Shown in pieces: positions 20,189-22,710 of a stretch of 64,000 bases of DNA (position 1 is the stretch's first letter; the number at the start of each line of letters is the position of its first letter). The notes beneath the pieces were generated by a model, which was not told where the DNA came from, searched no databases, and saw only the letters and a program-made list of their open reading frames with translations. The position numbers were made by a program, and so were the translations under genes. Source of the stretch: Candidatus Kerfeldbacteria bacterium (lineage in GTDB: Bacteria; Patescibacteriota; Patescibacteriia; SBBC01; CAIJZX01); assembly GCA_963731735.1 (NCBI GenBank), contig CAVSWO010000002.1, positions 628,257 to 692,256 of the forward strand, in the 5' to 3' direction.

Positions 20189-21680
20189 ATGGCCGATCAT
20201 CTCGTAGACCTGCTCACCAAGGAACTCAATCATTTTCAAACCAAAGCCGCGCGCGAACTGGTCGGGACCGTGCTAGAAGTCGGCGACGGCATTGTCCGCG
20301 CCGCGGGACTGTCCGACGTGCAGTCCCAGGAAATGGTGACCTTTGAATCCGGCGTCCAGGGCGTCGTCCTTAACTTGGAAGAAGACACTGTCGGGATTAT
20401 CGTGCTGGGTTCAGATATCGGCATTGAACAGAACCAAACCGTCAAAGCCACCGGGAAAATTTTACAGGTGCCGGTCGGCGACGCGGTGGTTGGCCGGGTG
20501 GTCAATCCGCTGGGGTTACCGCTTGACGGCCAGGGCGCGGTCAGCACCAAACAGTTCTATCCGGTTGAAAAAATCGCGCCTGGCGTGATTACCCGTGAAT
20601 CGGTTACCCAGCCGCTCCAGACCGGGATCAAGGCGATTGACGCGATGATTCCGATCGGCCGCGGGCAGCGTGAATTGATTATTGGCGATCGCCAAACCGG
20701 GAAAACCGCTATCGCGGTTGATACCATCATCAACCAAAAAGGCAAAGGCGTCCTATGTATTTATGTCGCGATCGGACAGAAAGAATCAAAAGTGGCCCGG
20801 ATCGTTTCAAAGTTAGAAGAAACGGGGGCGATGGAATACACGACGGTCGTCCTAGCTGGCGCCTCGGATCCGGCCGCCCTGTCCTACATCGCGCCATACG
20901 CCGGTTGCGCGATGGGGGAATATTTCATGGATCAGGGGAAAGACGTGCTGGTTGTCTACGATGACCTCTCGAAACACGCCTGGTCATATCGACAAGTCTC
21001 GCTGTTGCTGCGCCGCCCGCCGGGCCGGGAAGCCTACCCGGGCGATATTTTCTATGTTCACTCACGCCTGCTTGAACGGTCCGCCAAATTGAATAAGGAT
21101 TTTGGCGGCGGCTCGTTAACAGCGTTGCCGATTATTGAAACGCAAGCCGGTGATGTCTCGGCCTATATTCCGACCAACGTTATTTCGATTACGGACGGGC
21201 AGATTTATTTGGAATCGGACTTGTTCTACCAAGGCATCCGCCCGGCCTTGAACGTCGGCCTTATCGGTCTCCCGGGTTGGTTCCGCCGCCCAAACCAAGG
21301 CCATGAAAAAAGTGGCCGGAAAAATCCGGATCGCCTTAGCGCAGTATCGTGAACTGGCGGCCTTTGCCCAGTTCGGTTCAGAACTTGATCCAACCACGCA
21401 GAAACAACTCGATCGCGGCCGCCGGATGACCGAAATATTAAAACAAGGTCAGTATGATCCAATGAGCGTGCCGCAGCAGGTGGCTGTGTTGTACGCCGCG
21501 GCGAACGGGTATCTGGATGACGTGGACCCGGAGCAGATCGGTGCTTGGGAACACGATTTTCATCAATTCCTGGAGCATCAAGCCAGCGACTGGATTCAGG
21601 GCGTGGCTGATGGCGAGCTGACCGAGAAACTTGAAAAACAACTGCAGCAGTTGATTAAAGAGTTTCAGAAAGGACGCTAA
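20189..21680 (+). CDS. atpA: F0F1 ATP synthase subunit alpha, split by an apparent +1 frameshift near 21255-21262
   Basis: ORF 20189..21352 carries the Walker A motif GDRQTGKT and continues as ...RPALNVG. Shifting one base at the 'ggcc' site reads [24 protein letters not shown]..., which continues in-frame into ORF 21303..21680, the conserved alpha C-terminus. Confidence 0.85.
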
Positions 21681-21776
21681 TGCTTGTGTCAGAACATTCC
21701 GGCCATGCCAGACTGTCACCATCTCGGTCGCGGTCTCACCCTATCATCAATCATTCAATGGTAAATTTCTAACCAG

Positions 21777-22710
21777 ATGCCAGCCGCTTCACGCGACATC
21801 AAGCGCCGGCTCCGGTCGGTCGAGAATACCCGCAAGATCACCAAGGCCATGGAACTGGTGGCTAGCGTCAAGATGCGCAAAGCCAGCCAGGCGGTTTTGT
21901 CGACGCGGGCTTATACCGACCAGGCCTGGGAACTCCTAGTTAATGTGGCCAAGCGGACGGAGGTTGGCCAGCATCCGTTGCTGCGGGTTGCTTCGAAGCC
22001 AAAAAAGGTCGCCGTGGTATTGATTGCGTCAAACCGCGGCTTGGTCGGCGGATTCAACGCCCAAATCACGGCCGCCATTTCACACTACATCAAGCGCTTC
22101 AAAAACGTGACCCTGGCGGAAGTTGACACGATTATCATGGGTACCCGCGGCCGGGCGGTCTATTACCAGCATGGCCATGAAATTGCGGCCGAATTTATTA
22201 AGCAGGACGTGATTTTTAACGCGGCTGAAGTGCTGCCGCTTTCAAAACTCGTGATCGATGGATACACGAATGGGGAATACGATCGGGTCGTGGTTGGCTA
22301 CATGGATTTCGTGTCACCGCTCGTGCAAAAGCCGCGGATTCGACAAATCTTGCCGCTTAGCATGGAAAGTTTTGAGCGCGGGGAGATCGGCCTACTTGAA
22401 GAAGATGAGCGCCACGATATTGAACAGAGCCGAAGCCAAGGACGAAACGGCCTTTGACTACGCGTTTGAACCAAGCCCGGACGCGGTACTCGATGCGCTG
22501 TTACCCCGGATGGTTGAAATGCAGATATTCCGGGCGGTGCTCGAAACCAACGCCTCCGAACACGCCGCCCGCATGGTGGCCATGCGAAACGCGACGGACG
22601 CGGCCGGCGATTTGATTGACGAATTATCTTTGTCCTTTAACCAGGCGCGACAAGCCGCGATTACGGCCGACCTGGCGGAAATTTCCGCCGGCCGCGCCGC
22701 CTTAGAATAA
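21777..22710 (+). CDS. atpG: F0F1 ATP synthase subunit gamma, split by an apparent frameshift near 22400-22440
   Basis: ORF 21777..22457 is the gamma N-terminus ([29 protein letters not shown]). ORF 22258..22710 ends with the conserved C-terminus [42 protein letters not shown]. Confidence 0.8.

What the first reader, a model, noticed from the sequence alone, without database searches (positions are those of the whole stretch)
21240..22440. Two apparent frameshifts inside the ATP synthase operon (atpA near 21255-21262, atpG near 22400-22440)
AtpA reads ...RPALNVG. It then needs a +1 shift at the 'ggcc' site to continue [22 protein letters not shown]..., the universally conserved alpha C-terminus, which is found in the overlapping ORF 21303..21680. 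AtpG is likewise split between 21777..22457 and 22258..22710, and its conserved C-terminus [23 protein letters not shown]... lies in the second ORF. Two broken essential genes in one operon, plus further candidates at 17260-17300 (DUF2029-like) and near 34050 (NUDIX), most simply suggest indel errors in the assembly, for example long-read homopolymer or consensus errors. Real pseudogenisation of both is unlikely in a genome that otherwise looks functional. Programmed frameshifting cannot be excluded, but the sites lack obvious slippery heptamers.
Basis: partly seen in the sequence, partly recalled or inferred. Interest (0 to 1): 0.55.

Follow-up and report, generated by a model that had tools for sequence, protein, structure and literature searches.

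The report
Single-base insertions breaking atpA and atpG
Two ATP synthase genes in this Patescibacteria genome are each broken by one extra base, and the evidence points to sequence-assembly errors rather than gene loss or programmed frameshifting, so the finding is ordinary.

Summary
atpA and atpG are each interrupted by exactly one extra nucleotide (a +1 shift): atpA within 21260-21263 (GGC-C-TTA-TCG) and atpG within 22422-22431. Once repaired, both proteins align without a gap to intact orthologues, and neither shows relaxed selection. No usable slippery site, stimulatory RNA structure or conservation in relatives supports programmed frameshifting. The RF2-like CTT-TGA-C that ends the atpG frame-0 ORF is a decoy; codon usage and a relatives-only profile both place the real shift 25-30 nt upstream. 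The broken products are on record only from one 822,872-bp NCBI/ENA contig, evidently the source genome. An independent Logan assembly of the same population (ERR11594398, 8 kb compared, 99.94% identical) differs by a single indel. The NUDIX gene also carries two or three +1 breaks at A/T runs. All other genes checked are intact. Most likely explanation: single-base insertion errors in a long-read-type single-contig MAG (about 0.7). Rivals: very recent real strain-specific frameshifts (about 0.22) and recoding (about 0.03). No independent sequence covering the two atp sites could be obtained.

The parts
20189..21262 (+). atpA (F1 alpha) 5' part, residues 1-358, ending ...RPALNVGL
   Evidence: tblastn with relatives' AtpA residues 1-358 gives 82-86% identity in one frame. 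Alignment A1.
21260..21263 (+). atpA break: one extra base within C-T-T-A. Removing C, T or A restores G-L-S. Comparison with L081 (GGC TTA TCT) favours the C.
   Evidence: Gapless alignment across the junction and codon-level comparison with 22 relatives.
21264..21680 (+). atpA 3' part in the +1 frame, [12 protein letters not shown]...KGR plus stop
   Evidence: tblastn residues 357-497. Invariant columns are kept.
21777..22427 (+). atpG (F1 gamma) 5' part in frame 0, ending ...[10 protein letters not shown]
   Evidence: Alignment A2 to P0121-P0130 and tblastn.
22422..22431 (+). atpG break: one extra base somewhere in GAACAGAGCC (for example CAG-A-GCC or AGC-C-GAA)
   Evidence: Codon-usage likelihood peaks at 22425, the Viterbi switch falls at 22428/9, and the relatives-only HMM peaks at 22422-22428.
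22429..22710 (+). atpG 3' part in the +1 frame, [17 protein letters not shown]...AALE plus stop
   Evidence: Gapless alignment including the invariant Phe of F-[DE]-Y. The frame contrast is extreme.
22452..22458 (+). CTT TGA C at the end of the frame-0 ORF. It is identical to the RF2 +1 site but is a decoy, not the place where the frame changes.
   Evidence: A junction here scores -12.4 nats and -10.6 bits relative to the best junction.
16292..17402 (-). GT87/DUF2029-like glycosyltransferase gene. An extra C at + strand 17264 (coding-sense CTC-G-CCA) cuts off the N-terminal TM1 segment.
   Evidence: Logan contig L167 lacks this base and encodes one continuous ORF from the MMHGMAGQ start. Pfam GT87 match.
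33900..34343 (-). NUDIX hydrolase gene with +1 breaks near 34022 (AAA-T-ATG), 33982 (T5 run) and probably 33939 (A4 run), which together restore the original frame
   Evidence: Three-frame reading. Pfam score rises from 20.3 to 23.5 bits after repair. The repaired version aligns to PDB 4kyx_A through the repaired stretch, while the ORF as it stands has no hit.

Best explanation
The frameshifts in atpA and atpG, and those in the GT87 and NUDIX genes, are single-base insertion errors in the consensus of the deposited assembly. That assembly is an 822,872-bp single-contig Patescibacteria (Kerfeldbacteria-like) MAG, most likely built from long reads. In the organism both genes are probably intact and encode normal F1 alpha (496 aa) and gamma (310 aa) subunits.

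Shown: the location and +1 nature of each break, the intact state of orthologues, the absence of decay, and the absence of the GT87 insertion in an independent assembly.

Inferred: that the atpA and atpG insertions have the same artefactual origin, and that the assembly is long-read based.
For: (1) One extra base per gene, with everything else conserved. The repaired AtpA and AtpG align without gaps to relatives. Private substitutions at otherwise invariant columns are 7 for AtpA (relatives 0-12) and 3 for AtpG (relatives 1-11), all conservative. The downstream frames stay open and conserved.

(2) Independent Logan contigs of run ERR11594398 match the window over 7,994 nt with 4 transitions and 1 indel. 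That indel is the window's extra C at 17264, which breaks GT87, and the Logan allele is intact. The inserted C sits inside GGG (GG-C-G), which is not what replication slippage produces.

(3) Every broken product (AtpA 387 and 125 aa, AtpG 226 and 104 aa, GT87 321 aa, NUDIX 147 aa) is on record from a single contig of 822,872 bp only.

(4) All five or six events are +1 insertions and none is a deletion, which suggests a directional technical bias.

(5) Breaks occur in unrelated genes in both the core genome and a low-GC island, so they are not specific to the atp operon.

(6) Published work describes indels as the most abundant nanopore error type. They inflate pseudogene counts in single-contig long-read MAGs, more so at low coverage (PMC8103633). 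Many purported frameshift pseudogenes in public genomes are assembly artefacts (PMC11017572).
Against: No independent sequence covers 21263 or 22428, so the atp sites themselves are untested. The Logan contigs found stop at 20655 and resume at 23689. The Logan population is polymorphic and differs from the window by 4 substitutions, so the GT87 indel could be a true strain difference. Outside the four affected genes the assembly looks clean: there are no other breaks in about 60 genes, and L168 is 100% identical over 1.6 kb. Two hits in adjacent genes of one operon is also what pseudogenisation of a dispensable complex would produce. The sequencing platform of the source is not known to me. 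The atp and GT87 insertions are not in long homopolymers.
Confidence: 0.72

Rival explanations
1. The frameshifts are real, very recent, strain-specific inactivating mutations. This lineage, or the dominant strain in the sampled population, has lost F1 ATP synthase function. One hit came first, and the second accumulated neutrally in the now useless operon. GT87 and NUDIX are decaying as well.
For: The two breaks lie 1.2 kb apart in adjacent genes of one complex. The Logan data show a polymorphic population, with contig ends one base apart and 4 substitutions against the window, so allele differences between strains are plausible. The rest of the window is clean. From general knowledge, many CPR bacteria are fermentative and may tolerate loss of the ATP synthase.
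Against: There is no excess of private or radical substitutions in AtpA or AtpG, and no second lesion in either gene. atpB, E, F, H, D and C are all intact. All relatives keep intact genes. At about 0.05% divergence from the Logan population, three or more independent frameshifts in conserved genes would be a large excess of indels over substitutions. All events are insertions, whereas bacterial mutation is usually deletion-biased (general knowledge). The one unambiguously identified inserted base (C inside GGG) is not slippage-like. The broken alleles have been seen only in one assembly.
Confidence: 0.22
2. Programmed or tolerated +1 ribosomal frameshifting. Peptidyl-tRNA-Leu slips from CUU to UUA at GGC-CUU-A in atpA (Ty1-like), and a second +1 event in atpG restores full-length subunits, perhaps to tune subunit stoichiometry.
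For: Both shifts are +1. CUU-A is the P-site slip used by Ty1 (general knowledge). The atpG frame-0 ORF ends in CUU-UGA-C, the RF2 site. In-frame CTT-A is rare in intact genes, 4 of 84, Fisher p = 4e-4 against other NNT codons.
Against: The atpG frame change is 25-30 nt upstream of CUU-UGA-C by two independent methods, at GAACAGAGCC, which allows no re-pairing. The A-site codon in atpA (AUC) is common, not a slow or 'hungry' codon. No flanking RNA structure is significant (z from -0.8 to +0.8). No relative has an extra base at either site: 22 of 22 are in frame at the atpA site, and all close AtpG homologues are single-frame. The GT87 extra base is absent from a population 99.9% identical to the window. 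The candidate quadruplets differ at every site, so no single suppressor tRNA fits. CTTA is depleted in general (observed/expected 0.69), and CCT, TCT and CGT behave like CTT. Alpha is needed at three copies per complex, so nearly 100% frameshifting efficiency would be required.
Confidence: 0.03

Closest known systems
Spurious frameshift 'pseudogenes' from indel errors in long-read or low-coverage assemblies (PMC8103633; PMC11017572)
   Same: Single-base indels split otherwise perfectly conserved, essential genes into two ORFs. The genome is a single large contig. The breaks are scattered over unrelated genes. An independent assembly lacks the one indel that could be compared.
   Different: The platform and coverage of this assembly are unknown to me. 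The atp and GT87 insertions are not in long homopolymers. All events are insertions. Direct confirmation from reads is lacking for the atp sites.
RF2 (prfB) programmed +1 frameshift, CUU UGA C with an upstream Shine-Dalgarno-like stimulator
   Same: The heptamer CTT TGA C occurs at the end of the atpG frame-0 ORF, and the downstream frame is +1.
   Different: The frame change maps 25-30 nt upstream. There is no SD-like element 3 nt upstream (an AAGGA lies 9 nt away). The motif is not conserved in relatives. No autoregulatory logic applies to gamma.
Ty1-type +1 frameshift (CUU AGG C: tRNA-Leu slips from CUU to UUA)
   Same: The atpA site can be written GGC CUU A UCG, with the same CUU to UUA re-pairing.
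   Different: The A-site codon AUC is frequent rather than rare. Relatives read GGC TTA/TTG/CTT TCN in frame. The simplest reading is GGC + extra C + TTA.
Genuine pseudogenisation of ATP synthase genes in reduced or host-dependent bacteria
   Same: Two subunits of one complex are disrupted by frameshifts.
   Different: There is no additional decay, all other subunits are intact, and there is no sign of relaxed selection.

Membership tests
F1 ATP synthase alpha subunit (AtpA) | Full-length match to ATP-synt_ab_N, ATP-synt_ab and ATP-synt_ab_C with the conserved C-terminal region, in operon context | tested here: met
   After removal of one base, the 496-aa protein is 75-80% identical over 100% of its length to relatives of 497-498 aa carrying PF02874, PF00006 and PF00306. 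The operon order atpB-E-F-HD-H-A-G-D-C is syntenic.
F1 ATP synthase gamma subunit (AtpG) | Full-length match to PF00231 homologues, including the conserved C-terminal helix | tested here: met
   The repaired 310-aa protein is 61-76% identical to PF00231 proteins of 310-312 aa, with no gaps at the junction.
Assembly or consensus indel artefact | The indel is absent from independent sequence of the same organism | tested here: inconclusive
   Met for the GT87 site: the Logan contig L167 lacks the extra C at 17264. Untested for atpA and atpG, because no independent contig covers 20656-23688. The Logan population is 99.94% identical to the window, not 100%.
Assembly or consensus indel artefact | The broken gene is otherwise under normal purifying selection and carries no further lesions | tested here: met
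   Private substitutions fall within the range of the relatives and are conservative. There is one lesion per gene.
Assembly or consensus indel artefact | Raw reads disagree with, or only weakly support, the consensus at the site | not testable with these tools
   No read data are available. The run ERR11594398 was not found in the literature library.
Programmed +1 ribosomal frameshift (RF2 or Ty1 type) | A slippery P-site codon allowing +1 re-pairing, next to a slow A-site codon (a stop or a rare codon), at the actual point of frame change | tested here: not met
   atpA has CUU-A, but the A-site codon AUC is common. In atpG the frame change is at GAACAGAGCC, not at CUU-UGA-C.
Programmed +1 ribosomal frameshift (RF2 or Ty1 type) | Conservation of the frameshift site in orthologues | tested here: not met
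   All relatives are in frame at both sites.
Programmed +1 ribosomal frameshift (RF2 or Ty1 type) | A stimulatory element: SD-like sequence at the correct spacing, or a downstream structure | tested here: not met
   Folds of 63-80 nt flanking each site are no more stable than shuffled sequences (z from -0.8 to +0.8). No SD-like element lies 3 nt upstream.
True pseudogene (relaxed selection) | An excess of radical or private substitutions, further indels or stops, or decay of partner genes | tested here: not met
   One search shows no excess. One search shows all other atp genes intact and single-frame.

The most novel reading that the evidence does not exclude
The extra bases are really in the DNA, and the organism still makes full-length alpha and gamma subunits by efficient +1 frameshifting. 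In atpA this would be a Ty1-like CUU-to-UUA slip; in atpG it would occur at a non-canonical site. That would make this a CPR bacterium that tolerates or uses +1 recoding in core energy genes. A less exotic version is a natural strain caught in the act of losing its F-type ATP synthase.
Probability: 0.03. Interest if true: 0.75.

Novelty: not a real feature. Interest (0 to 1): 0.12.

Why it matters
If these are artefacts, as I think most likely, the finding matters only for data quality. This deposited single-contig Patescibacteria genome carries roughly one frameshifting insertion per 10-20 kb. Its apparent lack of functional ATP synthase alpha and gamma subunits, a GT87 glycosyltransferase and a NUDIX hydrolase should not be read as biology, for example in metabolic reconstructions of CPR bacteria. 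If the frameshifts were real, they would show either ongoing loss of the ATP synthase in a free-sampled CPR strain or an unprecedented case of +1 recoding in atp genes. Both would be of interest, but neither is supported here.

Tried and rejected
(1) A shared CGGCCTT motif at both atp sites, with an RF2-like CTT-TGA-C site in atpG. Rejected: codon usage and the relatives-only HMM place the atpG shift 25-30 nt upstream.

(2) A methylation-motif or common-context explanation. The contexts differ (GGC-C-TTA, CAG-A-GCC or AGC-C-GAA, GG-C-GAG, and A/T runs), so no common motif exists.

(3) A quadruplet-decoding suppressor tRNA. The candidate four-base codons differ at each site, and the only tRNA in the window is a normal tRNA-Arg(ACG).

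(4) My first guess that the GT87 break lay in the T4 run (AATTTTG) was wrong. The Logan contig shows the extra base is a C, 6 nt away.

(5) Extra frame switches suggested by the Viterbi scan at about 1672 and 43070 are an ordinary ATGA overlap and a single ORF with atypical codon usage. PheS is simply the short form, as in L085.

(6) Searches for same-species DNA:
- The exact junction pattern in metagenome contigs found nothing.
- The AtpG-based metagenome scan gave 51% identity or less.
- Exact look-ups of AtpA-387, AtpD (two starts), a guessed partial AtpA and the NUDIX ORF found nothing outside the hidden source.
- Logan partial products are not in the protein index, so their absence is uninformative.

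(7) Depletion of in-frame CTT-A as evidence for a shifty site. It is not specific: CTTA is depleted in general, and CCT, TCT and CGT behave alike.

(8) A literature search for run ERR11594398 returned no hits.

Full report
Identity of the region. The window (GC 53.6%) comes from a Patescibacteria/CPR bacterium close to Candidatus Kerfeldbacteria. The repaired AtpA is 75-80% identical to full-length (497-498 aa) AtpA proteins, several of them named Kerfeldbacteria. Positions 17482-24603 hold an F-type ATP synthase operon: atpI-like, atpB, atpE, atpF, an HD-domain gene, atpH, atpA, atpG, atpD and atpC. This order, and the flanking genes, are syntenic with relatives fetched as L081-L086.

Checking the observation. 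In atpA, frame 0 reads ...RPALNVGL and then runs into nonsense before a stop at 21350-21352. The +1 frame continues [20 protein letters not shown].... Joining the two gives a 496-aa protein that aligns to eleven relatives without any gap at the junction. Exactly one surplus base therefore lies in C-T-T-A at 21260-21263. The closest relative reads GTC GGC TTA TCT where the window reads GTC GGC C TTA TCG. All 22 relatives examined are in frame there.

In atpG the junction lies in a variable linker, so distant relatives only bracket it to 22379-22456. Three further lines fix it:
- A codon-usage likelihood trained on 26 intact genes peaks at 22425. The frame contrast over 22428-22454 is matched by only 1 of 10,935 nine-codon windows in real genes.
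- Closer relatives found later (P0121-P0130, 61-76% identical, 310-312 aa) align without gaps to frame 0 ...[16 protein letters not shown] followed by +1 [15 protein letters not shown]..., including an invariant Phe.
- A profile built from those relatives alone, scored against hybrids with every possible junction, peaks at 22422-22428.

A decoy. The atpG frame-0 ORF ends in CTT TGA C, which is identical to the RF2 programmed +1 site, and both atp sites contain CGGCCTT. I tested this lead and rejected it. A junction at CTT|T|GAC is 12.4 nats worse by codon usage and 10.6 bits worse by homology than the junction 25-30 nt upstream.

How widespread are the breaks? tblastn with the relatives' proteins shows that only atpA and atpG are split across the roughly 25 kb syntenic stretch. 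A six-frame Viterbi segmentation of the whole window, followed by a check of every same-strand frame switch, found only ordinary stop/ATG junctions elsewhere. The apparent switches at about 1672 and 43070 are false alarms.

The GT87 gene loses its N-terminal transmembrane segment through a +1 shift. The NUDIX gene passes through three frames: TADKW... in the first, MEPGDQWNALTWF in the second, SIGNLPVNVLP in the third, and probably back to the first. After repair its Pfam score rises from below to above the gathering threshold. The repaired protein aligns to the solved MutT-type enzyme 4kyx_A through the repaired stretch, while the ORF as it stands has no hit. All five or six events are +1, meaning an extra base. 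The NUDIX events sit at A/T runs; the atp and GT87 events do not sit in long homopolymers.

Independent sequence. This species is absent from the contig collections I could scan. Exact-protein look-ups with atpB, atpE, atpH and atpC found three contigs from an independent Logan assembly of run ERR11594398 (L167, L168, L169). They cover window positions 16517-20655 and 23689-27545. Over 7,994 bases they differ from the window by four transitions and a single indel. That indel is an extra C in the window at 17264, inside the GT87 break. The Logan contig reads ...ERHQGLPILHIQDGAFQ... in one frame from the MMHGMAGQ start. The inserted C interrupts a GGG run (GG-C-G), which is not what replication slippage produces.

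The Logan contigs end and restart one base apart (19021 | 19023). That is the signature of unresolved SNP bubbles, so the population in that run is polymorphic. The two atp junctions fall in the stretch the contigs I found do not cover, and I exhausted the look-ups without reaching it. Logan partial products are not indexed in the protein database, so their absence from the homology searches carries no weight.

Source of the broken alleles. The split products (AtpA 387 and 125 aa, AtpG 226 and 104 aa, GT87 321 aa, NUDIX 147 aa) are each on record from one contig only, 822,872 bp long and held by NCBI and ENA. This is evidently the source genome. An 823-kb single-contig CPR genome suggests, but does not prove, a long-read assembly.

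Tests of the biological alternatives.

Relaxed selection. At columns invariant in all other sequences, the window's AtpA has 7 private, conservative substitutions (relatives 0-12) and its AtpG has 3 (relatives 1-11). Neither gene carries a second lesion, and all other atp genes are intact. If the frameshifts are real, they are very recent.

Programmed frameshifting. The atpA site can be written GGC CUU A UCG, a Ty1-like CUU-to-UUA slip, but the A-site codon AUC is common. The atpG site (GAACAGAGCC) allows no re-pairing. The flanking RNA folds no better than shuffled sequence. No relative carries an extra base at either site. The candidate four-base codons differ at every site. In-frame CTT-A is rare in intact genes (4 of 84, p = 4e-4), but CTTA is depleted in general (observed/expected 0.69), and CCT, TCT and CGT behave the same way. 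This is therefore not specific evidence.

Conclusion. The sequence features are real as sequence. The best-supported explanation is that they are single-base insertion errors in the consensus of the deposited assembly (confidence about 0.72). This agrees with published experience. Indels are described as the most abundant nanopore error type and inflate pseudogene counts in single-contig long-read MAGs, more so at low coverage (PMC8103633). Many purported frameshift pseudogenes in public genomes are artefacts (PMC11017572). The main rival is a very recent, strain-specific inactivation of the ATP synthase together with GT87 and NUDIX (about 0.22). It is not excluded, because the atp sites could not be compared with independent sequence and the population is polymorphic. 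Programmed +1 recoding is unlikely (about 0.03).

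Noticed in passing
window 19312-19794 (+); L081 8594-9070, L085 9053-9532, L086 9127-9606: An HD-domain gene (PF01966) sits inside the atp operon between atpF and atpH. It is conserved at that position in all Kerfeldbacteria-like relatives fetched. The delta subunit next to it is short (130 aa).
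   Followed up: no
proteins P0168 (822 aa), P0169 (809 aa), P0175 (787 aa), P0182 (739 aa), P0185 (719 aa): Some relatives have AtpA-AtpG fusion-length proteins carrying both alpha and gamma Pfam domains. In L085 and L086 the atpA stop and the atpG start overlap. These could be real fusions, or products of one-base indels like those studied here.
   Followed up: no
window ~30000-34400, next to tRNA-Arg(ACG) at 34506-34578 (-): A low-GC island (GC3 0.24-0.44 against about 0.6 elsewhere) holds two SAM-dependent methyltransferases, a P-loop protein and the broken NUDIX gene, and abuts a tRNA gene. It looks horizontally acquired.
   Followed up: partly
window 33900-34343 (-): The NUDIX gene appears to carry three +1 insertions within about 85 nt (near 34022, 33982 and 33939, at A/T runs) that together restore the original frame. 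It therefore looks like an intact 147-aa ORF, but its C-terminal third is mistranslated.
   Followed up: partly
window 22452-22458 (+): CTT TGA C, identical to the RF2/prfB +1 frameshift heptamer, ends the atpG frame-0 ORF. Two independent localisations show that the frame change lies upstream, so this is a coincidence.
   Followed up: yes
window 19022, 20656, 23688 (boundaries of L167, L168 and L169): The Logan contigs of ERR11594398 end and restart one base apart. This is the signature of unresolved SNP bubbles and indicates strain polymorphism in that sample.
   Followed up: partly
window 16720 and 16722 (GT87 gene, - strand): Two adjacent nonsynonymous differences separate the window from the Logan contig (RIPARQ against RILTRQ). 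The other two differences, at 18730 and 25426, are synonymous. This could be a multinucleotide variant or a consensus error.
   Followed up: no
intact genes across the window (31 genes, 12,122 codons): In-frame CTT is rarely followed by A (4 of 84, against 18% for other NNT codons). The tetranucleotide CTTA is depleted in general (observed/expected 0.69), and CCT, TCT and CGT show the same tendency.
   Followed up: partly
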